Notes: generated by a model from the sequence alone, not told the origin. A stretch of 61,295 bases of DNA, filler included, from Hausera hauseri (GCA_046269625.1; 13 parts of 13 records of this genome joined end to end with filler, not necessarily neighbours in it); one strand, 5' to 3'; positions 370 through 32,849 are shown, numbered from the whole stretch's first letter. Program-made: numbers and translations.

Positions 370-951
370 TCAACGATTATCGGTCATCGTGTTCGGTAGA
401 AAGTTTATTCGAGGAGAATGCACGGAGCATCCAGAATCTACCAATTTCAAATTGTAATCATAATCGATGAGCAAATTTCCAGAATTTACGTCGTGGTGTA
501 TGACGCCTTTTAAATGATAATACACGAGTGCTTTACATAGAGTAATCGATATCTGACCGCACCATGCATACTCAGGAACCAGAAAAATTCGAATATCATC
601 ATCGAACCGAGTATTTAATTTTAAAATATTCTGATGGGATAATTTAATCATAACATTTACTTCACAAAAATGAAATTAATAGAATTATTTTCATACCATG
701 CTTTTTTGACATAACCTTCGCTGCACAGACGACCCCTTCTTTATTGTCTTAGCTAAAAATTCACGAATAAACTTCCAAATACCCAACAAACTTCCAGCAT
801 CAAAATCATCCAATTTACTTTTCGCATTTTGTTTGTCAATATGATAAGGTGGCGATTTTTCAACATCGAATTTATCAAGACTGTTGCTTGAATTAAAATT
901 CTCCGTAACTGGCAGTTGAAAAATATCAGCTTCCAAATTCATTTGGATCAA
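370..951 (-). pseudogene. Degraded, apparently intron-less Aurora-family Ser/Thr kinase fragment
   Basis: LDDFDAGSLLGIWKF resembles Aurora LEDFEIGRPLGKGKF. ALVYYHLKGVIHHDVNSGNLL..LKLVDSGCSVHSP resembles ALxYCHxKxVIHRDIKPENLL..LKIADFGWSVHAP. The HRD and DFG motifs are mutated, with frameshifts and truncation. Confidence 0.8.
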
Positions 952-1984
952 ATAGTAAAAAATGGCGCAGCACTATTTCAAAGTAAATTCAAATTTCAAA
1001 AGTATTTATTATTATTAAACCAAGTTTGTTTTTTACCTCTTTTTACAAGGCCACACGAAAGGTCACATACAAGTCCAGCAAATCCGGCACATCACCGGGA
1101 ACTGCTAACTGGTCTGACTACCACTATTAGTGCTGTGAAGAGTGAATGGCTGATGAGACGAATTAAATTGGGCGATTGCTGTGGGAGAACCGCCAGAATC
1201 TTTTACGGATTCAAATATGTTAGGAACTTATCTGAATTTCTTCGGCAGCGATATTAGGATGTTGTCTTGGAATACTGAACTGGTTTTATTCAAAAGACAC
1301 TTTACTCTCTGATCGAGGTTGAGCAGCATATTATACAGGTGATTCTACTCCTTCAGCGGCATTTTTGATATGTAAACAATTTTCTCAAACGACAGCTCCA
1401 CTTGAGTCAACGTCGAAACAGTCAGCTGATGGCGCTCGTTGAGGTGCTTCTTAAAGTTCTCCTTGATTTCGTTCTGATTTCTCAATCGTCTGTCGAATTC
1501 TCTGATATTTGGAGGTGAGGAAAGGATTTGCAGATATTGATTAAGCTACAGAGTTTGTAGTCAGCATCATTTTGTTGTCATTCATTTTTGGAGTGTCATT
1601 TATCTGTAATGGCGGAATGGATAGCTGATCGGCTGACTGAATGAGACTGCCGAATTCAGTGCCTCATTGATCATGTTCAGGGCGATCATATTTTCCGCAG
1701 TTGTGTCGCTGTTACCGCCGCCAATGAGGAATGATTGGTTGTTTGGAGTGGCACATGGCTAAAGCACCATTGACTCGCTGGCACCACTGAACAGTGTGGA
1801 CTTTAATGAATTGTTTTGCATTAGAGTGTCTGAAGCGGGAGATCGGGCCCGACTATGAATCCAACGCGCGGCAACGGAATCTCGGCCGTACCCGACCAAA
1901 TGGGCCAAAGGGCACCGGCTGCTGTGGACACCACAACGACCAATACTCCAAAAGGTACGACCACTGGCACCTTGTAGTAGACAG

Positions 1985-4913
1985 GCCGTAGAAGCCGCAT
2001 TCCTCGAACTAGAACGCTCCGGCATTGTACGACGTTACAAATCTCATTGGTCGTCACCTTTACATATTGTACAAAAAAGGACGGCACTTTTAGACCATGC
2101 GGTGACTACCGACAGTTTAACATTTTGACCATCATAGATGCGTACCCCTTACCACTCATCAAGGATATCTTGCATCGCCTTAATTCAACTACCATTTATT
2201 CGACCATCGATTTGGCCAAAGCACACCACCAAAGATCGGTGGCACCCGACGACATAGAAAAAACTGCTATCACTACTCCTTTTGGCCTTTACGAGTACCT
2301 GTTTATGCCTTTTGGTTTGCGAAATGCCGCACAGACCTTTCAGCGACATATTCGATTCTCTCAGATTTTCCGTTTGCACACGTTTACATTGATAATATTT
2401 TGATCGTTTTGTCTTCGGCCAAACAACACAAGGAAAACCTTCACGCAATATTCCAGTGCCTTAACCACCATAACCTCCAAGTCAATTTCGACAAATGCCA
2501 TTTCTTCAAAAAGTACATAAACTTTTTAGGCCACGTTATTTCATCAGACTGCCACTCTCCTCAACCAGACCGAGTTGAAACTATTAAGAATATCAAGTTA
2601 CCAAGTACGACCACCGGAATGCGTAGTTTCCTTGGTAAACTACACTTTGTACATAAATATATACCATATTGCTCTGAAATGACAGCACCATTTGCACACT
2701 TAAGAGGCGGCAAAAAACATCAGACAATCCAGTGGACACCTGAATTGGTTGAAAAATTTGATAAGCTATGCGAAGGAATTAAGGCCGTCGACATTCTCGT
2801 TTTCCCCAAGCCTGATGCTGAACTCATCCTTACTACAGACGCTTTAACCATTGTAGTAGGTGCTGTACTACACTAAATCCACAAAGGAGAAAATCAACCG
2901 CTAGAATTTTTCTCTCGTAAGCTACCAACCCCTAAAACTAGATATTCCACGTTCGATCGAGAATTATTGGCCATCGTCCTTGCTCTAAAGCATTTCTCCC
3001 ACCTACTTGTCGCTCGCCATTTTACTATACAAACCGGTCACAAACCCTTACTTAACATCATGGCTACGAAACATCCTTCCAGACGCCAAGAACGACAGAT
3101 ATCATACTTATCGTTATTTAACTTCGACATAAAACATATTAATGGGGTTAATAATTTGGTGGCCAATTTTTTATCTAGGTTGGTTAGTTTGATTAATTTT
3201 TCACCGATTTTTACGCAAGCTCAAGAACCAGCCACCTCAGGACATGCTTAATTCTTTCACGTCTTACACATTTTGGCGGTGTGGCTTTATATACTTCTAA
3301 ACCAGGTTATTCTGTAATAATCCTGGCACCATCATTGCAAAGGCAAGCATTTAATAGCGTATATTCCCTACACCACTCTGGTGCTAAAGCCACTTTTCGT
3401 TTACTCCATCGACAAGTAATTTTGCCGTCAATGCGTTCCGATGTGCAGGCATGGGTTAAGGAATGTGTGGCTTGCCAAAAATACAAAACAACTAAGCATT
3501 TAAAGCCACCACTGTTCCACTTTCCATGCACATCGCGTTTCGAATCCGTGCATATCGACATCGTTGGCCCTCTTCCTCCAGACAACGGACATCAATTCAT
3601 TCTCACTATGATGGACCATTCCTCGCGATGGCCGAAAGCCATCCCTCTGCAGAGCACAAACACAGACACTATAGCTGACGTTTTCATTCGTACATGGATT
3701 AGCAGGTTTGGATCACCTCGTTTCATCATCACGGACCAGGGTCAACAGTTTGAATCCAACCTGTTCAAATCCCTTGTTAACCGATTGGGGATCCATCACA
3801 TACATACAACTCCTTACCATCCCCAATCGAATGACCTCCTAGAACGCTTCCACCGAATATTGAAAACGTCACTAAGAATCCTTGCAGAGTCCAACACTAG
3901 TTGGACGCATCTTCTTCCGTTTGTTCTGCTTGGCTGGCGGAACACTCCGTCTACTTCTACAGGATGCTCACCTACTGAAGCCTTATTCGGAGCTCCTGTA
4001 CGATCATTATTAGAACTAACCGCCGTAGATAACACTTTCACGGAGGAGACGATACGGGCAGCGCAAAATCACTTCGTCGAGGTCAGCAAAGATTTGTTCT
4101 GCAAGCTACTTCACAAAGACAAAACATACTTATCCGAAGATTTGTATTCGGCAAAATTTGTATGGCTAAAGAATCAAGCGCTTTGGGGTTTTCAGCCACG
4201 GTACCTGGGGCCCTATAAACTGATACAGCTGCACTCACACAACGCTATTATCTCTAAAGAGGGTAAAGACCTTACAGTACACATTACCAACTTAAAGCCC
4301 GATTTCTTTGTAGACGACACTTTACCAATCGACACATCAACCTCTTTTTTTACTCCTCCATTCCCTGATATCTCTATATTTATTGCTACACCATTTCCAT
4401 TTTTCTCTTCTACGCCTAGTTCTGCCCCATCATTTTTTATACTTTCTACTTTTATTCCTACCACGCCCTCTGTATCATCTTCCTCTTCCACTCTTTTACC
4501 CAACACAATTCCAATCTCTACTCCAACTTTTTTCTCTCTTCCTTTATTATCCACTACACCTTTCATCAATCCTTTGTCTTCTAACATTATTTAATGCCTT
4601 TAACCATCTGTCTTTAACAATCCCTCTTCCTTCTTCATCCTCTTCTTCTCTTTATTCCGATTTATCTTCGCACGACACAACACCTACACCAAAATATACA
4701 ATTTTTTCCATAACCTTAATCTCTGCAAACAAACACATCGCATAAAGACACAACACGCAGAGTCACATTAAGCAAGTATAGCAGGGAAAAATCAGTCGAA
4801 GGTACCCAACGTCTTATTCACAATAAGCTTAACTGACACAAACATTTTTCTTTTTGCGATTTTTTTTCTCTATTCTTTTACTCTCCATAGTTTTAACTTT
4901 GCCACGGGGGTGA
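1985..4913 (+). mobile_element. Ty3/Gypsy LTR retrotransposon (family A), decayed pol: RT-RNaseH-integrase, then a polypurine tract
   Basis: RT (KKDGTFRPCGDYR, YSTIDLAKA, MPFGLRNAAQTFQR); RNaseH (LTTDA, FFSRKL, YSTFDRELLAI); integrase (HH-CC, VHIDIVGPL, TDQGQQFES, ERFHR, PRYLGPY). G-rich PPT at 4905-4910. Several frameshifts and stops. Confidence 0.95.
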
Positions 4914-5293: not shown

Positions 5294-7161
5294 TCTCCTT
5301 CTCCAACTATATGACCCAGATAAGGTACAACGTTTTGGGCCCATTTGCATTTCTTTGGATTCAACTTTAATCTGGCTTGTTCTAGTCTCATTAATGTGTG
5401 TTCGATATCCTTTAAGTGTTCCTCTTCTGTCTTGACGCTATCATTAGTTAGTCTAAATACGCAAAAGAATGATCCAGTCCCATTAGCATTTTATTCATCA
5501 TTCTTATAAATATGGCTGGTCCAATAGTAATACCGAACGGCATGACATTAAATTCATAAACCCCATTGTGTGTTTTAAATGCTGCCTTATAGCGGTCTTT
5601 GTCTTCTATCTCCACTTGCCAATATCCAGATTGTAAGTCCAGAGTGGTAAACAATTTTGCTCCTGAGAGTCGGTCTAAAGCCTCTTTTAATGACGGTAAT
5701 GGAAAGTAATCTTTCATCATAAGATTATTCAGGGCTCGGTAGTCAATAAAAAATCGATGTTTTGTGGTCCCTTTCTTCTTAACCATGAGGATTGGCGAAT
5801 ACCAAGATCTATAGCTAGGCCTAATTATATCGGCCTTAAGCATTCGTCCAACTTCCTTTGTTATTTCGAGCCTCGGTGAATGTGGTGGCGGGTATCATTT
5901 CGGCATCTTCTGGTCTTCCAAGTCTATTTCTTCGTTCGAACCAGGCTTTTTCTTGAGTGGAGTAGTCAGTTTTAACGCTTTTGCTCTACCGATATCTTCT
6001 TCGTTCTTAGCGATGATCAATTTATAGCGGCATAATAGTTCATGGAATCGACAATAAGACTCAGGTTCAAACTTAGTTTCTACATGAGGCGGAAATTCGG
6101 CGTGTTTATGAGGTTATTGACGATACTGCATAGGGATTTCCTAGAGTGGTATAAGCATAAAGCCTGACGGGGGTCTGTGCGTTATTAGCTATTCTGATCG
6201 GCACCCGACCGGACCGTACACTTGTTAGTATATTGCTGAGTATTATATTCGGATCTAATGTATCCTTTGGTTCAAAATTTACCGATTGATCGTCATTTTG
6301 CTGTATTTGGGCATAAATTATCATTTATGTTCTCGGTAAAATGTCTTCGTCTACGAGTATCCATATCTCTCCAAATTTTCTATCTTTAGCGTTTTTAACG
6401 CCTTTATTTGGCCTGATTTTTATTAACTTTCCTGTTTGTAAGTCAATTGCTATATTTGGTAGTCTTTTCAGTAGATCACATCCCAGAACTACGTCGTCTG
6501 TTAATTGCTCCATAACTGCAAATTCACGACGAAATATTTGTCCAACTATTTGAACTTCTGGGTTCCATTTATACATCGGTTTCGACATTTGGCCAAAAGC
6601 TCCCGTACTTCTCGGATCCCTTGTGGATGGCGGGTATAATTGTCTCCTTAACGATTGCGGTATCAATTTGTTTTTAATGTAAGACATTTCAGACCCTGTA
6701 TCAAGTAAGGCATAAACTTCCCAATCTTCAATAGTGACCTTGGCGAAGGGTCTTCCTTTTATTACTGTTCCGAAACAGTTTGATGCAACTTTTGGACGTT
6801 TGGTCGCCGGTATCGTATGTCCATTGATTAGGATTTCCGGGGAGGAAACTATATTTACAGACAATTGTCTCAATGCTTCGTTTGGATATAATTCGTTATA
6901 TTTTTTGTGCAATTCGTTTGCTTCATGTGTACTAATAAATGGTTCTCGATTGTTAGTGTGCAGTTTAGTATTCTGGAAGGTTTTTAACCTTGTATTGTCC
7001 CAAACCGTTGATCTAGTTTCTATATTCCGAGGTTCTCTCGGAGAATACAACAAATTGGGACCATCCGCGGATTGTCGATAACACATTTTTCGTAGCATCC
7101 CGTAGCGTTTCTTTCCTTCATAAAGGTCTTGTACACTAACTGTTCTCTTATAAATTTCCGT
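5294..7161 (-). mobile_element. Ty3/Gypsy element (family B): aspartic protease and RT, decayed and truncated by the contig end
   Basis: Protease ALLDTGSEMSYI...VVLGCDLL (6325-7098). RT SPILMVKKKG..RFFIDYRALN, FTTLDLQSGYWQV, MPFGI, AYLD* (5448-5843). Confidence 0.93.
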
Positions 7162-9065
7162 CTAATATGAACTTATTGATAGTTTGCTGCAGTATGGGGG
7201 CAGCATAAGCAATGGTGCTTTAATGACCGAGTACGCCTTATGTCTGTTTACTGCTGAAGGTACTTCTCCTCCCTTAGGCTCGTCATCATCTGAATTATCT
7301 CTTCGTATATTAGGTTTTGTAAATATCTTCTTCTGCAAGAATATAGGCCTCCTTTTCCGTTTACGATTATAATAGCCGACATGGCGTTCTACGTCCGATG
7401 TCCATCTATTTCCTTCGTAAGCTTTTAAAAATTTTCCAAAGGGCGTTATGATTGCAGTCAGTATTTTACATGAAAATCCAGTCAATGTGAATATTTCATA
7501 CCTACTTATTACTGCTTGGATGACTGCTTTAATTATTTGTATCAGAAAATATATCGCTAAGAATACGGATGCGGCTTGTCCAAAAATCAAAAATCTTCCC
7601 CAAATTTTGTAGAGTATTTTTGTTGTTACTCGTTAATAATGGTTTACACCAAGTAAGGTTTCCCATTTAGCCTGATATTGGGTATCGTCTACTACTGAGG
7701 CCATGGCTCGGTTTAATTCATGTGTTCGTTGTCGCTGAAAAGCGAGAAATTGTGTAAAGTCTTCGATTTCCTTCGCCCTGTATATGTATTTTGACGAGGT
7801 ATCTTGAAATTTATCGTCCGTAATTACTTTCTCGAGGTTTGTTCCCGTTAAGTTATTTGGAGCGGCAGTAATACCTCCATTTGGCAAACTAACCCAGTCT
7901 GTTTCATTACGTCTAAACATGGGTTCGCCTAAGCTTGCCTTACAATCTTTAAGGATGGTTGGTTGGGTAGCGTTATCCAATAACACTCTCGTCAATGGTG
8001 TAGCTAATCTTGGATAAATAACAGGGAGTTCCTGAATGCAACATTTTTCCTCCACGTTGATGGGTACATCTCTCTTTTCTCATTCATAGGTTAGCAGTAC
8101 CTGATCCGTGACCCGAACAAAAATTCCCGCTCTCATAGGAATTATTGGAGAAGCCAATTCTGGGTTGGCATATAAAAGAGCCAATTTCATCCTCATGATC
8201 TCGGTATCTAATTTACAGTCATTCATTATCATTTTGTGATATAGTTCCCTTATTCCGACTTGTCCTTTGTAATAGAAGTAATCATCTCTGTTTTTCAGGT
8301 AATCCTCAATTCGGACATCCCTTTCCAGTATCATATTCTGCTCCGTAACAATATGCGCTATGCATGCCTAACCTTCCGGCCACTACTTTGTATGCCCTAA
8401 TTATCTTTCCGAATTGCATTTCTAATTCCATACTGTCCCACTGTACTCTTTTAGTCTCCTTGGCTTGTTTGCTTGTGCTGGCGTTCCAAGTTCATTGGAA
8501 TTAGGGGAGTTGTTGGTTTGATTATTGAGGAATGTCCGTGTACTAACCCACAGTGAAAAATGCTAAGCGATCGTCTCAGCATGCATTCCATTAGATCTAA
8601 CGATAGCAGTTCTTGTCGTTGGTACAGGAAGTAATTTTTCTTTTTTGTTTCCAACTTGTGTGGTCCGTTATCTTCGCAAACTTCCAGATCCATTAAAGAA
8701 TACCTCGGCCCTAGTCTAAACTTATGGCAGTCGTAGATGGTTACAGCTCCTATATGCTTTATTAACATTATCAAGGTGAGTAGGCTGATTAACCAACTTG
8801 ATTCATTTTTCCGATAGCCAGCGTCTGCCGTTGTTAAATTATGTAGCATATCGTCGAATCTATTACCGATCCGTCTGTCTTCTTCCTTGTCGAATAGTCT
8901 TAACCAATTTACTTCGCAGGGTATCTTTCTTGCTGCTCTTCGTGCTAAACTTGTAGCTCTATTAACTTCATTCTCTCGATTAGGGTTTACTTTGATATCT
9001 AAATATAGTAATACTTTTCTTAATTCTTCAGTGATGTTTTTACCATGATCTTTTCGATTACCCAT
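7162..9065 (-). pseudogene. Env-like glycoprotein of chuvirus/Monjiviricetes type (class III, gB-like fusogen), fragmented into four ORFs
   Basis: A hydrophobic signal-like segment is followed by IYDC..YSLMDLEVC..YQRQE..C..SIFHCG..HSS. Then LYHKMIMNDCKLDTEIMRMKLAL..P..GIFVRVTDQVL, then CIQELPV..TPLTRVL..PMFR..W..IYRAKEIE, then a TM region FGQAASVFLAIYFLIQIIKAVI..GFS. This is the motif order of chuviral glycoproteins. Confidence 0.82.
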
Positions 9066-9520
9066 TCGTAAGTTAAGTTACTTTTTGATAGTTTAAAACG
9101 TGAACCTTTCATTATTCTAGCTGCATCGAATATTATCTTTTCTTTATCGTCTAACATGTCACCTCAAAGGCTCGATTAGTTTACAATTCGTATCAAATTC
9201 TTCATTAACTCGCTTAATTCCTCACTGTTTGTACTGAGAGTCGGAATCGACATCTGCCTCAGTTCTCTAATCAATTCACCATTATAATCGATTTCCTCTT
9301 GCGTCTTTTTCGGTTTACAAACTCGACGTTTCGGCTTTGGGCCTTTTGTCGTTATCTCACTCAATGGTACTAAATTTATGTCGTATTGTTAGTTATCCTC
9401 GTCCGTTTGTACATAGTCGANNNNNNNNNNNNNNNNNNNNNNNNNNNNNNNNNNNNNNNNNNNNTTAATTAATTAANNNNNNNNNNNNNNNNNNNNNNNN
9501 NNNNNNNNNNNNNNNNNNNN

Positions 9521-9810
9521 TGAAGTCGATTGTATTCAACACGATATGACGACTGCCGTTCAATTTGAGAAACTAACGATGACGGATAGTAAAATCCAAG
9601 CGGATCGAATACTCTGATGACGTTGTACGGATGGATGTACACAGCAATCCAATGTTCGCCGGAAACGATGAAGTTTGTGTTGACAATAAAGCCGCCGGTT
9701 TATCGTAAATCACGCGGCACACAGTCCAGTGAAAACACGCCACAAAATGTCACGCTCAAGAGCAGTTTTCCGTAGTGACTGGGCTCGGTGGAGCTAAATG
9801 TAAAAAATGT
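9521..9810 (-). pseudogene. Polinton adenain-like cysteine maturation protease (fragment)
   Basis: Minus-strand translation FIVNTN..GEHWIAVY...VFDPLG matches Maverick PRO IVNTD..GxHWVA...FDSxG. It lies directly downstream of the major capsid gene. Confidence 0.8.
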
Positions 9811-9882
9811 GATTTAAGCATAATAGTAATAGTAATAAATTACTTCATAGTACGACGGTGAGATACAGCGGATTTTATTTAT

Positions 9883-11088
9883 TTATACAATGACAGTTCC
9901 GATTTTCCTTATTTCAACCTCGGCATCAAATACACGGTAAATTTACGTAACAGTAGATTACTCCAACGCTTTAGCAAACTGAACCTCCAATAGAAGGTTT
10001 CCCTGTTGAGGTAATTGAGCCAGTTCAACCTCATAATCCGGAGCTAGGACAATTTAAAGAATGGATAGGTGGACTTACACAAATCCATCGATATGCCATT
10101 GTTGATGTTTCTGTTGAGCATATATGTGCAAACATAATCATTAGACTTAAAGTCTTGTTTGTACGTCTCAACGAAATCCGCATTCCGACCCATACTGATG
10201 TAATTCACATTGCTATGGGTAAACGTTTCCGAGTCGGTAGTATAACTGCCCGTTTGTAGAACAGTCGTTTGAAATGTATCGAGCACAAATTTCGGCAATC
10301 GCATGTCGCCAAACAGTGCGTCCTTGTAAAATGTAGTTAACCTTTGGGTATGGTGTAAAAGACGAGTTCTGTGTGTTGTATCGGGTAACAGGCATTTTGT
10401 GTTTCCAAGCTCAATTGATGTCCCATGAGCACAGATGGTTCTGCCTTTACTCGACGTACATATAATCGTATCTCGGTAATTTTCAGTATGGACTTGAGAT
10501 TTGCAACGGCGGCTTTCAAACAAAGGACATTGTCGTTGCGTTTGAGCCAAATCATGGCTTTAACACCGGGCAGTACGTATTTGGGCTAATCGAAAAAGTC
10601 AAAGTACAGCGGTCCATACATTGTAAGTGCTTTTGATTCTGTCACCCATACCTGATGGTTTGCTGCAGTGGCGTCATATCCGATGGTTTTTGTTAAATGA
10701 GTCGTTTCCGTGTCAGTACTGAAATTTAAAGCCGTTTTAATGAGTGCTTTGATACTGTATAGACTGGTGTTGCCTTCGATTTTGACGCTGTTTAGAGTCA
10801 GTGAAGCCTCCTGGAGCAGTATGAGGAAAAGGCGATTGGCCGGTGTGACAGTGTCTGTTGCATCGAGAACCGCTGATGCATCCTTTTTAACAATGACTTT
10901 TACATAGAGTAGCGTATGGTTTAAATCTAGGTATTCATTGTCCGATGGCATAATGTTTAATTGAATGTCAATATTATCATCCGTTAAAACCGAATTAACG
11001 GGATAGATTTCTTCAAAAGCTGCATTGTCAATAACAATTTGTGATGCGCCTTGTCAAATATACACAATTTAGATTTTACACATACCAT
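9883..11088 (-). pseudogene. Polinton major capsid protein (double jelly-roll, PY/hexon-like), frameshifted
   Basis: N-terminus MVCVKSKLCIFD..EEIYPVNSV..EYLDLNHTLLYVK and C-terminus QQGNLLLEVQFAKAL..FDAEVEI match Maverick MCP (KSELDLF..YLDLNNTLLYVK..GNLRLExxFAxAL). Span is about 400 codons. Confidence 0.88.
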
Positions 11089-11139
11089 TTGTCTATCAAT
11101 CAATCGGAAATCGTACGATGACGACCTTTATTTATAGTT

Positions 11140-11442
11140 GATGAGCTATATGATATCCTACGGTGGTTTCTCATTGTTTCTTGACCAATTCAACGACACC
11201 CGGTGCATCGCTTTTTATTTCTGACAAGACGTGTTACTTCAATGATGGTAAAATCGATTTGTTTTATATAGTACGCCCTGCGCTGTTTTTTCTGCCACGG
11301 CTCTAATACGTTGGAACACCGGAAATTCTAAACCTGCCAATGTACGCAACCATCCAGAGCCATACTGTTTACCGAGGAAATACGGCAGTTCACCGCCCTG
11401 CTGGGGTTTACTGTAAATGGAAATGATTTCGGAATCAATCAT
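11140..11442 (-). pseudogene. Small Polinton virion/core gene with QxGxG protease-site-like motifs and an amphipathic helix (cupiennin-like gene of adintoviruses)
   Basis: PQQGGELPYFLGKQYGSGWLRTLA..PVF matches the conserved Maverick QxGG.LP.F.G..QxGxG protein. It sits in its usual position between minor and major capsid genes. Confidence 0.7.
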
Positions 11443-12451
11443 GCTGTTGTTGTTGTTGCAGTCTACGTACATGAAAAGTTAGACTGGTTGTGGTACCGGA
11501 GGGAAATTCAACAAGGTAGCCCAAGTCATATCGGATATTCAATTCAACATTGTTTATAGATGTTGATGCTACAGATAGGTACATTGGATTATCAAACTTG
11601 ACCGTTACATTGTCGCCAGCAGTATACTTGCTGCTTTCCGGATAAATTGCGCAGAGTAGCGGTACACGTACTCCACCAACCAAAATCAGTTCGGTGACGT
11701 TCACGTAAATGTATATTTGACTTAGTACTGTTTTTCAAAACCCAATACCATGGCCAAAGCTTTGTCCCATAAAATTTCGACAATATCCATAGCGAGTTCT
11801 AATTTAATGTACCCTTTTGCATTTAACTCGAAAACTTTAACTATCTCCTTGTACTTTTGATTTGAAGAAAAGTGTTAACAGAGATGTGCTACAGATTCGA
11901 GATAAAAATTGTCTCCAATCGACACGTATGACGTTGACACCCCTTTGGCTGTATAGGTAAATTTCACCGTTGACTGGTAATGTAAGGGACTTAATCTTGG
12001 GCAACTGCATATTCACTTTTAATATGTTTACCTTTGTACTCTTTATTTTTGAATCCAAATTTCTGCGCCATCTGAGAGGACTCAAAGATTACAGTAAATT
12101 CAAAATCTGCCATAAAATGTAAATTTTGATCTAAAGTAAAAACACCGATTTTGCCGTGTTAACCGTAATTTATTTCGATCTTGCAAATGGCCGATACTCC
12201 AACTGTTATTTTATTGTTAGTAAGTGTCAGAGGACAAGAATGTCTTTTGGTTTCAGTAACAGTCTTGTACGTTATTTTCATACTACCTTTTAATGTCACC
12301 TGTGCGTAGGGAAAGTTAAATTCCGTCGAAACAATCACCTCTTTTCTAGATAAATCCAAAGGACTGTTCCAATCTACAACGTATTCACTGGCTGAATTGT
12401 TCGGACGAATTGTCGGATAAGTGTTGCTCGCAACACCATGTAAATACTCAT
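11435..12451 (-). pseudogene. Polinton minor capsid protein (penton/PX), paralog 2
   Basis: N-terminus MSIYMVL.SNTYP..PNNSASEYVVDWNSPLDL; C-terminus LVGGVRVPLL..FDNPMYLSV..NNVELNIRYDLG..FPSGTTTSLTFHVRR. Frameshifted. Confidence 0.82.
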
Positions 12452-12505
12452 GATCTCAATGGTGATGATGATGATGATGGTTAGAGTGATGACGCAATTT
12501 GTTTA

Positions 12506-13552
12506 TTATCGACGACGACGAAAATGTAGCATAAAATGTGTCTTGGGTCCAAACAGAATAAAGTTCGTCTACTATATACACGAAAATACTGTGCACAACA
12601 TTGTGAGGCAACAATAAATACATGGGCCGGTTGACATTTACGTGAGCAGTTTCGCCCAGTGTTTTGTACATAAACAAATCCAGTTTAATAAAAGCCAATA
12701 GTTGTTTACGGCCTCCGCCAACATATACGGTTTAAGTTAGATCCGTTGAAATATTAATTCGATGAAATGCTTCATACAGACGTGGTTTGTGTTTAGTAAC
12801 ATTGGGCGGTCCGCCGCCGGTTTGACCGAATTCTCGTTTCTGAAAACCCAAATTCCGTGCCAATAGTTCAGCAAAGACAAAATATGTAACATTATCATGT
12901 AGTGTAGACGAAATACAACCGTCAGAGTTTAACTCAGATGTCTTGAGAGCCAATTTAACTACAAACTTGATGGTTGTGAACAATTCTTTTTCTGTTTTTG
13001 TAAGAAAATCAGTTTCTTTTGTATGCGAGTAAAAGAATGATTCAGTATTTTGCCAGTTCACTGTAATATTGGTGGTTTCTTTTTTGAAAAGTTCAATTTT
13101 TCACTAATTGTACTCTGTCTACCGAGATGTAGATCTTTCGAGCGTACATTGGCAGATGATTGAAAACCCCATGCCTGTGCGCCGTCTGGTGATCTACATT
13201 GCAATTCAATCGAATGTTTGTGTTTTAGCACCAATTGATTGTTTAAATGAAAAATATAAACCGGGAAATATTGCCGCTTGTAATTGAGAACGTGAAATAT
13301 TCCATTAGAGTCTCGGACTAACTGCAAACGACTGGATGCAGGAGATTGTTTTACTAGAGTATAGTAAATTCCAGTGTCCGCATGAATTGTTATTGGTGAA
13401 AATTTAAACGTGAATTCCGCCAAAGCCACTTCCCAGGCTCCTTGGCGTAAATCCAGCGGCCAGTCCAACGCCATAGTAAAACGTTCAGCGGTATTGTTGT
13501 TATTGTCATGTTCTGATAATCTGTTACCATCAAGTACCAAATAAATGCTCAT
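12506..13552 (-). pseudogene. Polinton minor capsid protein (penton/PX), paralog 1
   Basis: N-terminus MSIYLVLDGN..NNTAERFTMALDWPLDLRQGAWEVALAEF; C-terminus VYVGGGRKQLLAFI..RPMYLLL..LHFRRRR. Confidence 0.82.
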
Positions 13553-13599
13553 CACTCAATCTGCGATGCAAATATCCAACTCCGTTTAGTGTATCCGTG
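13552..13599 (-). pseudogene. C-terminus (chromodomain-like end) of a Polinton integrase
   Basis: HGYTKRSWIFASQIE* aligns with KWHGYTAPSLIFPSQIQ* at 39454. Confidence 0.75.
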
Positions 13600-22475: not shown

Positions 22476-25400
22476 ATCATCCATGACGGTCAGACATGCC
22501 ACAGTATCATGGAAAAATATTTCAAATGGTCATTCAATGGCTTTCAATTCTACATATGCTCAATCTGTGAGGAGGTGAGCAGAGGAAGTTATTATGATTT
22601 CTATGATGGTCATAGACATCATATCAATATGTTCAAAACATCCAAGAAAGGAATATTCCAAAGATTTTTACCACAAATGGTGATTTTATTAATTCCCATT
22701 TACTAAATTAATTATATATTCAGATGTCAACTTTATCAAATGCTCCCAAACAGAACATTGAAAAATGTCAAATATATACATGTTGTGTATCAAGTGGATC
22801 ACATGATATCCAGAAATGCCATAAAAATGAGAAAATATTATGGTCTGATCTGGAACAGTGAATACTTTATATGCCCCGAATGGGAAACTGTCAGCACAGG
22901 TGAATACTGTAAGTTTTATGAATTTCATGAAATCCAATTACGCAATTTCATGGCTAAATCCAAAAAGGCCATATTCAAGATAGGCATTGTTCCAGTTATG
23001 CCTTGTACATCTGCAGCGCCTGCAGCATCAACCTCAATGCAGCACCCTTGATCGTCGGCGCAGAATAATGGATCCTCACAGCAGCGTAAACGAGGCGCAG
23101 TGGCAGCGAATGATGTATCGCGAAAAAGTCAACTGCAATGATCAGTTGATGTAGCTGCATTGAAGAACAAAGTGAGGCGATACTTCATAACAGCAATGGG
23201 ACAGATATCACTCCATGAATTCCTGGAATATTCAAAGGAGGAAGCAGCATGAATTCTCCAGGTCAACTTGTTGGAGATGAAGGACCTTAAGGTGAACTTC
23301 AAATTGGAAGCCACCTTCACCAATGTCGAAGGAGAACTGTCTAGTGGAGCCTTCAAGACAAAGAACAGGCCATTATTGAAATCCTCTAACATTAAGGACT
23401 TAATTACTGATGACTATGAAAGGCTCATCCGCGAAGCCGAAGAAAGCCACGACAAGAAGAGGGGTTGGACATTAGCAACAATAAAGGAGTTACTTGTGCA
23501 TGTGTACAAGTATTCTCCCATGAGAGACAGCTCCTACATACCGCTTCCTGATCGGATAGTTAAGAAAAAGGCATGCATCAATGTCCATAATAATGACAGC
23601 ATGTGTTTCATGTATTCTCTTTTGTCAAAACTAGTCCAGGATCAACATAATGTTTCCCGAGTTTGCATATATGACAAAGTGCAGTACTCATACGACTTCA
23701 GCTGTATTTCATTCCCGCAGAGTCTAGATGAAGTCGCAGAATTTGAAAGCGTAAACATCTCCATCAACATCATTGGATTGGAGGACAAATTTTATCCCTT
23801 ACATATGTGCAAGGAGGAATTGGAGGATCATAGGGATCTGCTGCTGCTAGATGATGGAGAAACGAGGCATTTCATCTGGATCAAGAATTTTGAGCACCTC
23901 GTAGGATCCCAAATATCTAAGCATAAATCAAGGCTGGAAATATGCAAAAGATGCTTTACCCATTTTAATGGAGACAGCCGCAGAAAAGATGTAGGAGCAC
24001 AATACCTACTGCGATACGAACTATTGCATCCGAGCAGAATTCCCCAAGGAGGATTACCTGGAATTCAAGGTGTCCGCGAAGATGCAGAAGGTGCTGATTG
24101 TCATATATTGTGACTGAGGCCATCCTCAGCCCAGTTCACAGTGCAGCCCCAATCTGCAACAAAGCAGTACTACAGCATACCAGTACCATGAAATATCATC
24201 ATACTGCATGTATGTCAAAGGACTGGACAAAGAACCCTACCTATACAGAGATCTAAATACAGCAGCACATTTTATGCAGCGTCTGGAACAGTATGCCCAC
24301 AAACCTGAAGACATGTTGCAGCAGCACAAGGGATACATGGTGATGTCGCAGCCAGAGAAATGTGAATAGCGCAAAGCAGCACTATGCAACCTATGCAAAA
24401 AGCCATTCACAATCACAAAGTCAGGGATCACTGCCATCTTACAGGCATATACCGAGGCGCAACGTGCAACAATTGCAACTTACTCTGCAAGACATGTAAA
24501 TATGTTCCCGTGGTATTCCACAATCTTAGTGGATATGATTTCCCCTTTTTGTTCCAGAATTGGGTAATATTGAGGGGAACATTGATGTAATTCCAAATAG
24601 TGAGAAGTACATCACCTTCACAAAGTATGTAGGTCGCATTAGACTTCGCTTCATTGATAGCTTCCGCTTCATGACCTCGTCACTACACAACCTCGTGAAG
24701 AACCTTAAAGCTGATGAGCTCAAGGAGACGAAGATGCTCTTCTCGTATACATTTGACCTGGTGAAGCAGAAAGGAGTGTCGCTATGACTATATAACGTCA
24801 TGGAAAGCACTGGATGAAGATGTATTACCGGCCAAAGAGGACTTCTATAATCAGTTGTCATACAATCATATTAGCCATGCTGACTATGAGCACATCCAAA
24901 GAGTATGACAGACTTTCCAGTGCAGGACAATAGGGGAATACAGTGATATCTATTTCCTCACAGATGTGCTGTTGCTTACAGATGTCTTGGAAAGATTCCG
25001 GGATGTAACTCTTAAGAGCCACATGTTAGATCCAGCCCATTTCTTTACAGCTCCAGGAATGAGCTGAACGGCGATGCTGCGCTATACCGGCATAAGGCTC
25101 CAGATCTTGAAGGATTACAATATGGTCCTCATGGTTGAGAGAAGCATCATGGGCGGAATCGGCCAGGTCATTCACATGTACAGTGAGGCCAACAACAAAT
25201 ACATGGTAAATTATGACCCATCCAAGGCATCCAGCTATATAAGATACCTGGATTCCAACAACCTGTATGGATGGGTAATGAGCAACCCATTGCCCTATGA
25301 TAACTTTCAATGTGTGGAGAAGCTGCAAGTCCTGGATTTGGAAGGTATGGATCCCGATGGAGATACGGGATACATACTGGAGGTGGACGTGGAATACCCT

Positions 25401-26433
25401 CATAGAATCCACACAAGGCATGAGCAGCTACCTTTTCTTCCGGAGAGCAAGAGGCTGCCGAATGGCAAGCATAAGAAGCTGCTCTGTCTTCTCGAAAACA
25501 GAGATAGGTATGTAGCCCACTATATAAATCTCCAACAGACCATTACAAATGGACTCCAAGTCATCAGCATTCATCGAGCCCTGCAGTTCAGCCAGTCAAA
25601 ATGGCTGAATCTATACATAGACCACAATATCCAGTTGAGAGCCAATGCCAAAAACGAGTTTGGAAAAAACAAGCTGTATAACAACTCGGTCTTTGGCAAA
25701 ACTATGGAGAACATACGGAACCGGATAAACATCTAGCTGGTATGTCACTGGAAGAGAGCAAAGAAACTCACCGCTAAGCCCAACTTCCACATCAGCACAA
25801 TTTACACGGAGAACCTGGTGAGCATCCATATGCTCAAGACATCACGAGTCAAACAAGCCTATATATGTGGGCATGACCATATTGCATCTATCCAAGACCT
25901 TGATGTATGACTTTCATTACAACATCATGGTCCCCGCATTCAAGGAGCTCCAGCTAATGTACATGGACACGGACAGTTTCATATACCAGATCCGTACGGA
26001 TGATGTCTTTGAAAAGTACGCAAAATTGCAGCAGTATATGGATACCTCAGACTATCCGAAGGATCATCCAAATTATTTAATTACCAACAAGAATGTCCTC
26101 AGGAAGTTTAAAGATGAGGTGAATGGGAAGATCATCATCCGTTTCGTGGCGTTGAAATCAAAAATATACGCCATCGATGTAAATGGTCAGGTAACGAAGC
26201 GGGCCGAGGGAGTTCGAAGGACCACATTAGCAAAGAAATTGGTTTTGGAGATTTTGAGAGAGTGTTGCGGGAGCAAAATCACAGCCAGCGAGATGAAAAG
26301 GATCCAGTCCCGGGAACACCAGATTGCCACAGTTGCGCTGCGAAAGAAAAGTCTTGATTGGTTCGATGACGAGAGGCACTTTCTTGAAGACGGAATCCAC
26401 ACACTACCTGATGGACATGTGGCTTTATTGTAA
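22476..26433 (+). pseudogene. Polinton protein-primed family-B DNA polymerase (copy 1) with an inserted endonuclease-VII/HNH-like domain
   Basis: SSYIPLP..KKACINVHNND..CF; VRDHCHLTGIYRGATCNNCNL; HNLSGYD; FIDSFRFM; YLDSNNLYGWVMS; KLYNNSVFGKTMENIRNR; YMDTDSF; KFKDE. AATAAA at 26461. Many stops and frameshifts. Confidence 0.93.
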
Positions 26434-26582
26434 CTATATACATATTGTTATTCTTTGTTCAATAAATGTTGTATAGAAATATAGGGTTGTCTTCTTGATA
26501 AAGAAATGTGGGATATAGGATAAGGCCAAGTAAAACTAAGTAACTACTATATAGGGTAAGACCAACAAATTTAATAACACAT

Positions 26583-26885
26583 TTATTTCGTAACAATATA
26601 ACTTTGACATAACGCTAAACACTTGTTATATGCACAATGTGAACCATGTTCACGAAAAATACATGTACTGTTCTTTGGTATAGTTACCAATTTGTTACAT
26701 TCATATGCACACATTCGCAATTCTGGAAATATGCTATTAAATATCTTCTTCTTTCGCCCATCAGCATGATTTTTGACACAGAACATTGAATCATTTATAT
26801 CACACATATTCCCAATATCTTTCATAAGGCAATCTCTGCAAAACTGGGTATTATATTCTTCCCAAGTCAGTTTTTGATGATGGTT
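26583..26885 (-). CDS. C-terminal part of a Polinton accessory DEDD-like nuclease, homologous to 52427-52892
   Basis: FCRDCLMKDI..DINDSMFCVK..FPELRM..HCAYNKCLALC aligns with FCVSCIMRDI..DIENTIFYIK..FPELRM..HCAYKKCLRLC at about 52630-52875. Confidence 0.72.
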   Translation of the reverse strand, partial: NHHQKLTWEEYNTQFCRDCLMKDIGNMCDINDSMFCVKNHADGRKKKIFNSIFPELRMCAYECNKLVTIPKNSTCIFREHGSHCAYNKCLALCQSYIVTK

Positions 26886-26985: not shown

Positions 26986-28476
26986 TGACACTTCAAAACA
27001 AGGTCATCCCATAATAATTCTAGCACCGCCTTTACAACGACAAGCGTTTAACAGCGTACATTAACTACATCATCCTGGTGCTAAGGCAAATTTTCGCCTA
27101 CTTCACCGGCAGGTAATATGGCCGACAATGTGTTCCGATGTGCAAGCATGGGTTAAGGAGTGCGTGGCTTGCCAGAAATTTAAAATCACAAAATATTTAA
27201 TGCCACCACTATACCATTTCCCTTGCGCATTACGCTTCGAGTCCGTACATATAGATATCGTCGGTTTTCTTCCTCTTGACATCGGTCATCAATTCATTTT
27301 GACCATGATGGATCGCGCCTCACGTTGGCCAGAAGCTGTTCCTCTACGGAGCACTAACACGGACACAATAGCCGACATTTTCATCCGCACTTGGATCAGC
27401 AGATTTGGTTCTCCTAGATTTATCATTTCGGACCAAGGTCCCCAATTCGAGTCCAACCTATTCAAATCACTTGTCAATAGATTGGGAACCCGTCATATAC
27501 ACACTACGCCTTATCATCCACAATCAAACGGTCTTATTAAGAGATTCCACAGAACCCTGAAAACGTCGCTAAAAATTCTCGCTGAATCCAACGTAATTGG
27601 ACTGTTCTTCTCCCTATGGTTCTGGTCGGTTGGCGGAACACGCCATCCACTTCCACAGGATGCTCACCCACCAAAGCATTATTTGGAACACCTGCTCGCT
27701 CCTTGTTCGATTTAACAGCACTAGATAATAGGCCTACAGATGAAAAGATCAAAGCATCAAAGAACCATTTCATTGAAGTCAATAAAGACTCATTATGTAG
27801 AATACTACACAAGAATAAAACATATTTTCCTGACGACTCGTATTCTGTACAGTTCGTTTGGCTGCGTAATCAAACATCGTGTGGCTTTCAACCGCAGTAT
27901 CTCGGGCCTTATAAGCTAGTTCAACTATTTTCTCACAACGTTATAATCCTTAAAGATGGAAAAGAACTAACAGTCCATATAAATAATGTGAAACCTGCCT
28001 TTTTTGTAGATGACACCTCTCCAACTGAAACTTCGACGAATTTTTTGACTTCTAGATTTCCTTATGTTTGTACTCCTGACTCTACTCCTACTACATTTTC
28101 TCCGTTTCCTGATTCTTTTCACACATTCACTCCACCTACTATTCCTACCCCTACCACTTCTTCATTCCCCTCCCCACCTTCTTACCAACAACTACTTTTC
28201 CCTCGCCGAGTTTGTTTCAACGAGACACAACATTTAACGCGACAGATTGTAGTATCGTTTCTTCCAAAGAACCTCAATAAACGGAGACTAAAGCAAAGAG
28301 ATTGCGCAAAACTGTTACTTTCGGCAAGTACAGTAAAGTAAAACATAATGAAGGTATTCAACCTCTGGTCCATACCAAAACTGAATAATCCAATAGAAAT
28401 CATCTACTTCGTCATTTTCAGTCCTCATTTCATCTTATCTGTTTAGTCCATATTTCGCCACGGGGGCGGGGGGTGA
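26986..28476 (+). mobile_element. Gypsy family A, copy 2: integrase and PPT
   Basis: Nearly collinear with 3290-4330 (SDVQAWVKECVACQK, VHIDIVG, SDQGPQFES, QYLGPYKL). PPT gggggcgggggg at 28462-28473. Confidence 0.93.
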
Positions 28477-28987: not shown

Positions 28988-29810
28988 TTAATATTTTCTT
29001 AACGGATCTACCTTTGTATTTATCTTTTGTTGCCAGTTCAGTATTTTTCTTAACAAAACCACAGGTAGGATTGCCTCTCGTCCATACATCATAAAGAACG
29101 GTGTAAATCCTGTTGCTGGATGTGGAGTCGTATTTATCGCGAATTGTGTTCCTTCTAAGAATTCATCCCGTTCTTTTTGATCTTTTACCACTACTGTTGA
29201 TAGTATCCGAATGACTGTTGCATTCATCCGCTCGATCATTCCATTACATTGGGGATTATACGCGGTAGTAGTTAAACGTTTAATTTCAAATATTTTAGTC
29301 ATCTTTTTAAATAATTCGATCGTAAAATTCTTTCCTCTATCTGTTAAAATTTGTTCTGGTGGTCCGTACCTGCAGATGATTTTTCTTACTACTGCGTCGG
29401 CTAGAGTTTCTGCCTTTTGATCTAGCAGTGCCACCAATTCAACAAAGTGTGTGAGCCGATCTACGCATGTTAGGATATATCTGTTATTCTTGTGGGTTTT
29501 TGTCAACGGTCCTACTATATCCATATACATGGCTTGCATGGGCCTGTCTGGTACGTTTATAGGTTTTAATTCTGCTACGTAGCCTTCCGTTTTCTTTTGT
29601 TTTTGTCGCGCAGACTTCGCATGCTCCTATCCAATTCTTTACATCAATGTAGATACTTGGCCTGTAGTATTTATTTAATATCCTTTCTAATGTCTTCTTC
29701 CAAGACATGTCCGGCTAAATATGAATCGTGCTCGGCCATAAGTACTTCTATGCTCAATCATTTTGGAATAACTATTAGTCTTCTTCCTTCTCGTTTGTAA
29801 TACAAAATGT
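28988..29810 (-). mobile_element. Gypsy integrase fragment of a different family (HHCC zinc finger + rve core)
   Basis: HDSYLAGH..KTLERI..ACEVC; MDIVGPL..NRYILTCVDRLT; LTDRGKNF; YNPQCNGMIERMN; TGFTPFFMMYGRE. Confidence 0.9.
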
Positions 29811-30349: not shown

Positions 30350-31187
30350 GTACAAAATATAATGCCGAATGAAGAATACGAAAATACTTTTGTCAACAAA
30401 GCGAAAATAACACAATTTGAGCTTTCAAATTAGGCAGCAAACATCAATGTACTCAAATTATTCCATATAGCCACCATCTGATGAAAATAATGATGACAAT
30501 GATACAGGAAATAACTTTGACAATGAAGGCGACAAATCTGTACAAAATTCGACCGGTGAAGTGCAAAATGCCAAGTTGGAAAAGGAAACGAAACCGGATA
30601 ACGAATGTAAACTACCGAAAGTATCATCGGAATCGAAGATCAATATCAACAATATTCACAATTTCGAATTGAATTTAGACAGTAACATTTAAAAAAGGTT
30701 GTGTATAAAGTTGTGTATATTTTCATACTTCATTTATTTGAACGAAATACGATAAAACGAGTGATATTTTTTATAAATAAAATCATTAGCAATGATTATT
30801 TCCCCTTTGTCTGACAGGTAATTTTCCAGTTGTCATTTTTCGTATTCAGTTCTCATTGAACTATCGTCAGTACTAAAGACTAAACGAAGGCAATTGTTGT
30901 TTTGTAACAGCTTTAGACGATGTGGGAAAATGGCACATCAAAACTGCAAATACTCTGAACACGGTGTACATTGTTCATTGTACGAATGTTTCGTATTTTG
31001 TGAATTATTAATTTTTATGGGATACTATTGGAGATTAAATATTACTAGACCAGTTATAAATTGTATTGATGAAAAGGAAATTTAAAAATTCATAAATTAA
31101 AAATATTGTTTTAAAATAAATTTATGGACAAATGTTAAAACGAAGGCTAATAATTACAATTCTATGATCATTTATATACAAGCTTAC

Positions 31188-31402
31188 CTAACAAGTTCTT
31201 GATTATATAAACTAAGTGGGGATTGTCTAGCCACGATATAAACATGACCTTTGAACAACTTCAGTGTAACTTCTCCCGTTACAAACTTTTGTGAGTCTTC
31301 TATAGCCGTTCGCAAAAATTCACATTCTGGACTAAACCACAGCCCTTTATAAACCTGTTCTGAAAATTCAATGCACAGTCTCTGTTTAATTCGTCTCAAT
31401 TC
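31188..31402 (-). CDS. ASS1: Internal exon of argininosuccinate synthase
   Basis: ttttcag|GAATTG...GTTAG|gtaag encodes ELRRIKQRL..FSEQVYKGLWFSPECEFLR..VTGEVTLKLFKGHVYIVARQSPLSLYNQELV with an intact frame. Confidence 0.92.
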
Positions 31403-32849
31403 CTGAAAACAAAAAACATCTAAGAAAATGCATCATAAGTTTTATTTTTAAGAAATCGTTTGTTAAAAAGTGAAAAGACAGAATGGACTGGGCTCAAAGC
31501 GGAACTGTATTTTTTAATGAAAATGCAGGATTATTTCACATTTTGCGGGACAGCAGGCATGCTTGCCATTCTAGCAGAAATTAACCTGGATCCTCTTATT
31601 TGTTGTTTTCACCAAGAAGACTCAGAATCTGCAAGTTTCTGAAGACATTTTGAGTTGAGTAGCATAACTTTCCATATGTAACATGGCAACAATTCTAAAA
31701 TGATAAAGGTCACCTTCATTCCAAACTTATGTTACCACCGCCAAACCTGGACACTAAACACAACACTGTCATGACAGACTCTGCATAGTTGAGCACTTAA
31801 CTCTTCTGGAGAGGGTTCCAGAACTTTCCTTGTCTTGTTGGGTATGTAGGAGATATGCCAAGGTCATACGGCACTGCAATATCTGGTAGCTGAGCTTTCC
31901 TACTGTCCCAGTGGTGTCTTGGAGATGGACCTAGGTCCTCCAGGTTTTTAGAGCAATGCTTGGCCTCCTAGAAGTGATCCACATCTCAACTTGGGCCCAT
32001 GACGATCCTCCCAAAGTTGGCCAGAATTTCTTCTGTTTCCAGGACGCATTATGAGGAAGTGTTAAGAGGACTTGGCCAATATGTGGGTCCTAGATCCGAC
32101 TAGATCGAAGTCTCAGCATCCCATTTGACCTCTTAGAAGTGATTAACTGCTCAAATGGGAACCATCTTTTGACTCGTAGGTTTCCTTTCCGCTGGCCTTG
32201 AGTCACAACAAGGATGTGGGCTGAGGCCTTGATTGATGACGAGTCATCAGGCCTGATACCGTGTAACAGGACTGGCTATGAGATGCCTAGAAACCTCACA
32301 GCATCTCAAACTCCCGTCTGAACAAACTTAAAACATGTAACACGAGCTGCTTACATGAAGCTGCAAGCAACACATTAGACGACAAAATATCAAATGATGT
32401 GCATGTTCCCAAAGTACTAGGCAGGTCACAGAATTCTCCCTTTAGAGTCCGGTCCATTGTGAAACATATTCTCCAAAACTGTACCCAGTATGATGCACTG
32501 AGGCACACTCACNNNNNNNNNNNNNNNNNNNNNNNNNNNNNNNNNNNNNNNNNNNNTTAATTAATTAANNNNNNNNNNNNNNNNNNNNNNNNNNNNNNNN
32601 NNNNNNNNNNNNCGATCTCAGGAGAACAGAGCACTAATGGATACACACCCGCGTACGAAGATGTTGACCCTTCGACTAAACTAAACTGAACTAAAACATT
32701 CAAAACTAAAACGTGAAGAATTGTCTCCACTTGTGAGGGTAAAGACAACATCCCCACAAACTCAGACCACAACCGTCACCTCTACACATTTAAAGGCTAC
32801 CGTTCAGTCAACGATTACAGCAACACTGGATACACTAAGTAAATATAAA

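What the first reader, a model, noticed from the sequence alone, without database searches (positions are those of the whole stretch)
5294..9420. Gypsy element with a chuvirus-type envelope gene upstream of pol
Seen: on one strand of one contig the order is unknown ORF - glycoprotein (signal, YDC..CG..HSS, TM) - protease - RT. Known: errantivirus env genes and chuvirus-derived env genes in BEL/Pao elements normally lie downstream of pol. Inference: this is an independent capture of an RNA-virus class III fusogen by a Ty3/Gypsy lineage, with (gag)-env-pol order and a possibly infectious ancestor. The ectodomain looks shortened around 8300-8450.
Basis: partly seen in the sequence, partly recalled or inferred. 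Interest (0 to 1): 0.8.

Follow-up and report, generated by a model that had tools for sequence, protein, structure and literature searches.

The report
Decayed retroelement, envelope before polymerase
This contig is a broken copy of a retrovirus-like mobile element whose membrane-fusion gene sits in the same reading frame just ahead of its protease and reverse transcriptase, an unusual gene order already described in a few invertebrate groups, so it is likely a new example of a known kind.

Summary
On the minus strand of one 4.1-kb contig lie a leader, a chuvirus/herpes-gB-type envelope gene (Pfam Monjiviricetes_fusion, E 2e-28), a protease and a Ty3/gypsy RT. A chimera is unlikely: 8 of the 10 closest envelope relatives continue in frame into a protease, several are single gag-env-PR-RT-RH-IN polyproteins, and these also give the four best RT scores. 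Two corrections: the 'signal' is internal, and env and protease share one frame. This copy is dead, with stops, frame changes and about 145-160 ectodomain residues missing.

The novelty claim fails. GAG-ENV-POL gypsy elements with gB-type env are reported in nematodes, bryozoans and flatworms (Chary & Hayashi, eLife 2026), who argue for an ancient env rather than a fresh capture. This scan also noted the layout on other DNA (e1-9743086).

Still open: host phylum, gag and LTRs (off the contig), and how Pol is made. One in-frame TAG between env tail and pol seems shared by other copies, hinting at read-through or splicing. Verdict: new member of a known kind, interest 0.3.

The parts
9062..9420 (-). 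Upstream coding fragment, broken by stops and cut by the contig end; likely the variable spacer between Gag and Env (inferred). No gag domain seen.
   Evidence: No Pfam hit in three frames; no similarity to relatives' upstream regions (best E 0.06); relatives carry 150-600 aa of variable spacer here
8799..9077 (-). About 90 residues in frame ahead of the hydrophobic segment (leader of Env)
   Evidence: ORF 8451-9077; hydropathy scan
8733..8798 (-). Internal signal/anchor segment just before the YDC motif
   Evidence: Kyte-Doolittle peak at residues 94-115; same position in polyprotein relatives
8487..8735 (-). N-terminal part of the class III envelope ectodomain (YDC ... CG..HSS)
   Evidence: PF24664 profile 5-96; 29-37% identity to the top env-before-pol relatives
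8440..8490 (-). Site of a deletion of about 145-160 codons, with a frame change; removes most of the beta-rich region that likely carries the fusion loops
   Evidence: Gap against P0122, P0123, P0124, P0127; in run X1 depth 115 at 8473-8474 against thousands on both sides and 13 loose ends at 8491; region is beta-rich in the P0124 model; fusion-loop assignment inferred
7597..8367 (-). C-terminal half of the ectodomain, two in-frame stops (8080-8082, 7633-7635)
   Evidence: PF24664 profile 298-601, E 2.3e-28; 191 relatives at E<=0.001
7504..7596 (-). Transmembrane helix of Env
   Evidence: Hydropathy; WGxF motif shared with relatives
7165..7503 (-). Basic cytoplasmic tail; 7180-7256 varies among copies
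   Evidence: Translation; joints and depth minimum in run X1
7162..7164 (-). Single in-frame TAG between env tail and pol frame; apparently shared by other copies
   Evidence: no difference listed at 7148-7235 among 40 of 69 rows shown (all with share >=0.54); no indels listed
6460..7161 (-). Pol leader (about 135 aa) and aspartic protease (DTG at about 6700)
   Evidence: Pfam RVP, gag-asp_proteas; best blastp to P0127 protease, E 1.7e-11
5895..6459 (-). Protease-RT linker, broken by stops and a frame change
   Evidence: tblastn of P0122, P0127, P0272, P0275
5294..5894 (-). Ty3/gypsy reverse transcriptase, YxDD motif interrupted, frame change near 5440, cut by the contig end
   Evidence: RVT_1; best PDB hit Ty3 RT 4ol8, E 3.3e-30

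Best explanation
This is a decayed copy of a multi-copy Ty3/gypsy element whose chuvirus/gB-type envelope gene lies in frame ahead of protease and reverse transcriptase, and which in its working form likely made one Gag-Env-protease-RT-RNase H-integrase polyprotein, as its closest relatives encode. Likely working (inferred): Gag stays in the cytosol; the internal hydrophobic segment threads the ectodomain into the ER and is cut by signal peptidase; the second membrane helix brings the chain back to the cytosol, so Pol is first made as an extension of the Env tail and is freed by the element's own protease. Env trimers would then let particles fuse with other cells, for example germ cells. This copy can do none of that: env and RT are both broken.
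For: Shown: domain order and one frame from env C-half to linker. Of the 10 best env relatives, 8 have a protease in frame behind env at E<=0.001, a ninth weakly (E 0.0018), and one ends after the TM. Eight proteins run env-protease-RT-RNase H in one ORF (P0122, P0127, P0129, P0148, P0155; P0272, P0275; P0279). Five have CCHC knuckles or a gag hit upstream in the same ORF. The env tree puts the query in a 97-supported set of 12 rows, 8 of them env-before-protease. The four best RT scores among 128 proteins are such polyproteins. TM-to-protease distance is 299 aa against 130-463 in relatives. Fold: a profile of 57 homologues hits herpes gB in 39 of 41 PDB matches; the model of intact relative P0124 (pLDDT 82.7) matches gB (E 1.5e-13) and chu-like virus glycoproteins (E 1.7e-43). 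Family: 15,240 contigs of run X1 lay on the contig, and one joins protease to env N-part with 61 letters on the short side. Established: GAG-ENV-POL gB-type elements (PMC13524379).
Against: Gag, LTRs, PBS, RNase H and integrase are off the contig, so 'gag-env-pol' is shown only for relatives. The RT tree support for query plus env-before-pol proteins is only 81/82, on a 40%-filled row with an unsettled bootstrap, and the one-clade test did not finish. The TAG at 7162-7164 seems shared by other copies, which does not fit a plain uninterrupted ORF in this family. No listed contig spans the env-pol junction ungapped; the three joints that clearly cross it have 24-28 letters on the short side, under the tool's 31-letter bar. 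X1 may be the window's own sample. Topology, cleavage and fusion are untested.
Confidence: 0.82

Rival explanations
1. Same element, but in this family Pol is not simply fused: the TAG after the Env tail is a real, kept signal, read through at low rate or used as a splice acceptor that joins gag to pol and drops env as an intron. This would set the Env-to-Pol ratio.
For: No difference listed at 7148-7235 although 7 are listed in 7105-7147, depth 224 at 7153-7173, no indel rows. Four joints from other copies resume at 7173-7180, so the block around the stop is kept while 7180-7256 varies. Polymorphic sites (share <0.8) favour third codon positions of the same frame on both sides (5 of 7 and 4 of 6).
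Against: 29 of 69 difference rows were not shown, and differences near contig ends are not listed. The numbers are small. This copy has three other in-frame stops in the same frame, so a fourth lesion is not unlikely. Close relatives have no stop here. No stable structure lies 3' of the site (-7.2 vs -7.8 shuffled). No RNA data.
Confidence: 0.25
2. One reading: an independent, lineage-specific capture of an RNA-virus class III fusogen by this gypsy lineage.
For: Closest viral folds are chu-like virus glycoproteins. No near relative exists: best env identity 34%, best RT 54%. Chary & Hayashi report that GAG-ENV-POL elements are not one clade.
Against: The env groups with env-before-protease polyproteins (support 97 and 95) rather than with the stand-alone glycoprotein-length hits. 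RT points to the same proteins. Viral matches are only about 22% identical. The paper argues for an ancient env-pol association. My tree has no named viruses and no root, so the donor was not tested.
Confidence: 0.08
3. Chance neighbours or mis-assembly: an env fragment from one element (for example BEL/Pao) next to a gypsy pol from another.
For: Depth in X1 is lowest at 7174-7194 (56) and no listed piece spans it ungapped. Only contigs, no raw reads, were available.
Against: Same strand and same frame across the join. The same relatives match both env and RT, collinearly. Contigs of other copies join the two sides. The hit with a BEL/Pao-type DUF5641 domain (P0186) and the env-after-integrase hit (P0210) sit elsewhere in the env tree.
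Confidence: 0.04

Closest known systems
GAG-ENV-POL Ty3/gypsy 'errantiviruses' with HSV/gB-type ENV in Nematoda, Bryozoa and Platyhelminthes (Chary & Hayashi, eLife 2026, PMC13524379; abstract, sections 5 part 1, 6 part 1, 9 part 1, 14, 22, passages and parts of supplements 1, 4, 6 seen)
   Same: Ty3/gypsy RT, gB-type/chuvirus-like env, env between gag side and pol, ectodomain flanked by two hydrophobic segments, multi-copy family.
   Different: This copy is broken. Host phylum unknown. No sequence comparison with the paper's elements was possible (sequences are on GitHub, figure supplements unreadable). In the text I searched, 'frameshift', 'readthrough', 'single ORF' and 'splic' do not occur, so how Pol is expressed is not treated there.
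Non-canonical nematode endogenous retroviruses (Sacco et al. 2022, J Gen Virol, doi 10.1099/jgv.0.001739)
   Same: Env before pol in a metavirus, env from an RNA-virus glycoprotein (title and citing passage seen in PMC13524379). Recalled, not read: a continuous gag-env-pro-pol ORF.
   Different: Paper not held, so no direct test. Nothing here shows a nematode host.
Anakin and other BEL/Pao elements with chuvirus-like glycoprotein; Jingchuvirales-glycoprotein EVEs beside gypsy fragments (Dezordi et al.; PMC10084718, abstract and Results seen)
   Same: Same glycoprotein family next to an LTR retrotransposon.
   Different: RT here is Ty3/gypsy and env precedes protease; in BEL/Pao elements env follows integrase (recalled; P0186 with DUF5641 then env is an example).
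ENV-GAG-POL elements of oribatid mites (Medioppia, Oppia; PMC13524379)
   Same: Env upstream of pol.
   Different: Those carry F-type env (supplement 1 rows) and a short gag between env and pol; no gag feature lies between env and protease here.

Membership tests
Ty3/gypsy (Metaviridae) | RT of Ty3/gypsy type | tested here: met
   Best PDB hits Ty3 RT (E 3e-30), far above HIV RT; 120 listed homologues are gypsy-type Pol at 42-54% identity
Ty3/gypsy (Metaviridae) | Order protease-RT-RNase H-integrase | tested here: inconclusive
   Protease-RT seen; contig ends inside RT. Relatives show the full order
Ty3/gypsy (Metaviridae) | LTRs and tRNA primer site | not testable with these tools
   Both ends off the contig; no genome held; no DNA of relatives recovered
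GAG-ENV-POL gB-type errantiviruses | HSV/gB-type (class III) env | tested here: met
   PF24664; homologue profile hits gB; fold of relative P0124 matches gB and chu-like glycoproteins
GAG-ENV-POL gB-type errantiviruses | env upstream of pol on the same strand | tested here: met
GAG-ENV-POL gB-type errantiviruses | gag upstream of env | tested here: inconclusive
   No gag hit in 8800-9420; five relatives have gag features upstream in the same ORF
GAG-ENV-POL gB-type errantiviruses | Pol groups with the published nematode, bryozoan or flatworm clades | not testable with these tools
GAG-ENV-POL gB-type errantiviruses | Intact ORFs (the paper's inclusion rule, not a lineage trait) | tested here: not met
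   Stops, frame changes and an ectodomain deletion; this is a decayed copy
BEL/Pao with chuvirus env (Anakin type) | BEL/Pao-type Pol with env after integrase | tested here: not met
   Gypsy-type RT and env before protease

The most novel reading that the evidence does not exclude
A distinct clade of gypsy elements makes Gag, Env and Pol as one membrane-threaded polyprotein, so the enzymes are packaged through the Env tail instead of as Gag-Pol; in this family a kept TAG at the env-pol border (read-through or splice acceptor) sets the Pol level, in a host phylum where the gag-env-pol order has not been reported.
Probability: 0.2. Interest if true: 0.6.

Novelty: new member of a known kind. Interest (0 to 1): 0.3.

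Why it matters
As it stands, it adds one divergent, high-copy family (34% env and 54% RT identity to anything found) to a recently described group. The useful point is mechanistic. With env between gag and pol in one frame, Pol cannot be packaged as an ordinary Gag-Pol fusion, and the passages I read in the main paper do not say how it is made or packaged. The intact natural relatives found here and the possible kept stop make that question testable.

Tried and rejected
A -1 ribosomal frameshift at the AAATTTA heptamer near 7157 was rejected: its -1 frame is not the pol frame, and the downstream fold is no more stable than shuffles. Word-index protein searches with env pieces found nothing; only the full HMMER search found relatives. 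Direct PDB sequence search with the env C-half gave 0 hits. The single-sequence fold of the env C-half was unusable (pLDDT 38.4), so the fold evidence rests on relative P0124. The first RT tree (121 rows, 149 columns) left the query unplaced. No DNA of relatives was found in viral, metagenome or prokaryote collections. No RNA holder was listed. The ESM Atlas gave no result. No look-alike DNA and no notes for this genome in earlier findings. The host could not be placed below 'animal'. ENV-GAG-POL order was considered and dropped: no gag feature lies between env and protease. Sacco 2022 could not be read (searches did not return it).

Full report
1. Observation. The window joins short contigs with N/TTAATTAA spacers, and 5294-9420 is one of them. 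No whole genome is held. On the minus strand, Pfam finds Monjiviricetes_fusion (PF24664) in three of four env pieces. Read with X at two stops, the C-half matches profile positions 298-601 at E 2.3e-28; the N-part matches 5-96. A retroviral aspartic protease follows (E 6.6e-6), then RT (E 2.6e-21), whose best solved relatives are Ty3 RT. From 8367 to 6108 one frame holds 4 stops, against 63 and 55 in the other two (counted), so env C-half, tail, pol leader, protease and linker are one coding frame. The hydrophobic segment before YDC is internal, about 90 residues into an open frame.

2. Relatives. A full HMMER search with the env C-half gave 191 proteins at E<=0.001, 150 listed. I scanned 22 of them with Pfam, then 5 cluster members and 3 more proteins. 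Of the 10 best, 8 continue in frame into a protease, one does so weakly and one ends after the TM. Eight proteins carry env, protease, RT and RNase H in one ORF, seven of them with integrase; P0272 and P0275 are 90%-cluster mates of P0125 and P0126. Five have CCHC knuckles or a gag hit upstream. tblastn lays these proteins collinearly on the contig, env first. In an env tree of 125 rows (hits covering at least 230 residues, out of 156), the query sits in a set of 12 rows with support 97 (8 env-before-protease) and in a set of 17 with support 95 (12 of the 14 such rows); the three hits with env after RNase H, integrase or DUF5641 lie elsewhere. The four best RT scores among 128 proteins belong to the same polyproteins. 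An RT tree of 48 rows (40 chosen from the 120) groups the query with all 7 of them, but only at 81/82, on a 40%-filled row. Almost all relatives are unnamed, so their hosts are unknown.

3. Fold. A profile of 57 homologues matches herpesvirus gB in 39 of 41 PDB hits (best E 2.5e-4). The model of intact relative P0124 (85-row alignment, pLDDT 82.7) matches HSV gB (E 1.5e-13) and chu-like virus glycoproteins (best E 1.7e-43, 22% identity). The window's env aligns to P0124 residues 141-232 and 441-736. This is a class III fusogen by homology; fusion itself is untested.

4. State of this copy. Against four relatives, 144-161 ectodomain residues are missing near 8440-8490. In run X1 depth drops to 115 at 8473-8474 and 13 contigs run off at 8491, so other copies have sequence that this one lacks. 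The lost part is the beta-rich region of the P0124 model, likely the fusion-loop domain (inferred). Env has further stops, and RT is interrupted at YxDD. The copy is dead.

5. Family and contiguity. One run held the stretch (30% of words); it may be the window's own sample and offers contigs only. 15,240 contigs lay on the 4.1 kb, 657 of them at 99% or better, which fits a large repeat family but is no copy number. One contig joins protease to env N-part with 61 letters on the short side. Seven of 15 joints shown link 7036-7180 to 7196-7269, but the three that clearly cross the border have under 31 letters on the short side, and depth is lowest at 7174-7194. Raw-read contiguity was not tested; the case against a chimera rests mainly on the relatives.

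6. The env-pol border. One TAG (7162-7164) separates tail and pol frame. No difference is listed at 7148-7235 among the 40 of 69 rows shown, all with share 0.54 or more, and no indel is listed. A stop private to this copy would be expected among those rows, so it may be a kept signal (read-through or splice acceptor). Against that: rows were cut, this frame has three other stops, relatives have none here, and no stable structure follows. A -1 frameshift at the nearby AAATTTA was rejected on frame. I give the kept-signal reading 0.25.

7. Mechanism. Shown: order, frame, homology, breaks, and single-ORF relatives. Inferred: a polyprotein threaded twice through the ER membrane, with Gag cytosolic, the ectodomain luminal and Pol back in the cytosol behind the Env tail, released by the element's protease; particles would use Env trimers to enter other cells, as Drosophila errantiviruses do with F-type Env (PMC13524379 discussion).

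8. Known or new. Chary & Hayashi (PMC13524379) report HSV/gB-type env in GAG-ENV-POL order in Nematoda, Bryozoa and Platyhelminthes, note that the env resembles chuvirus glycoprotein, find ectodomains flanked by two TMs, and argue for an ancient env-pol association. They cite Sacco et al. 2022 for nematodes; that paper is not held, and its continuous ORF is recalled. Dezordi et al. (PMC10084718, Results) describe these glycoproteins beside gypsy fragments. The eLife figure supplements and GitHub sequences, which would allow a direct placement, could not be seen, nor the bioRxiv supplements. Earlier scan notes e1-9743086 and e1-9887218 reached like readings on other DNA; I had the paper before seeing them and did not check their DNA.

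9. Verdict. Real feature, new member of a known kind, interest 0.3. The most novel reading left open is Env-tail packaging of Pol with a kept recoding or splice signal in a new host group (probability 0.2, interest 0.6).

Noticed in passing
P0127, P0130, P0272 (relatives): Tandem aspartic-protease motifs behind Env: 3, 4 and 6 D[TS]G motifs after the TM, some of them after the integrase; Pfam finds 2-4 protease stretches.
   Followed up: partly
P0122 (about 2250-2627), P0127, P0275 C-termini: After the integrase, the same ORF goes on into a second hydrophobic segment, about 300 aa without a Pfam hit, and a TM: possibly a second membrane protein.
   Followed up: no
P0124 residues 9-70: Weak Bcl-2 hit upstream of Env (E 0.00096, below the curated cut-off); the region is helical in the model.
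   Followed up: no
P0122 (HBK71150.1): The closest env relative, a gag-env-pol polyprotein on a 9-kb contig, is labelled as a Flavobacteriaceae MAG protein; probably a mis-binned animal retroelement.
   Followed up: no
P0237: A Monjiviricetes-type glycoprotein fused behind immunoglobulin domains.
   Followed up: no
window 9521-13599, 22476-26885, 38181-43052, 52253-56981: Polinton/Maverick-like fragments: family B polymerase at 25068-25736 (E 3e-11); capsid-, integrase- and ATPase-like ORFs named from recall; 12272-13599 is repeated at 38181-39501.
   Followed up: partly
window 1859-4594, 27065-28341, 28991-29626, 46423-46740: Other decayed gypsy pol pieces (RT-RH-IN on the first contig; integrases elsewhere), no env found with them by tblastn.
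   Followed up: partly
window 31184-31432 (-), 57899-58219 (-), 370-675 (-), 44330-44560 (+): Host hints: argininosuccinate synthase exon (E 4e-23) and EGF exon, a kinase fragment, and a mariner-like piece (recalled, no Pfam hit). They point to an animal but not to a phylum.
   Followed up: partly
window 47700-51100: Long CT-rich microsatellite region with internal N gaps.
   Followed up: no
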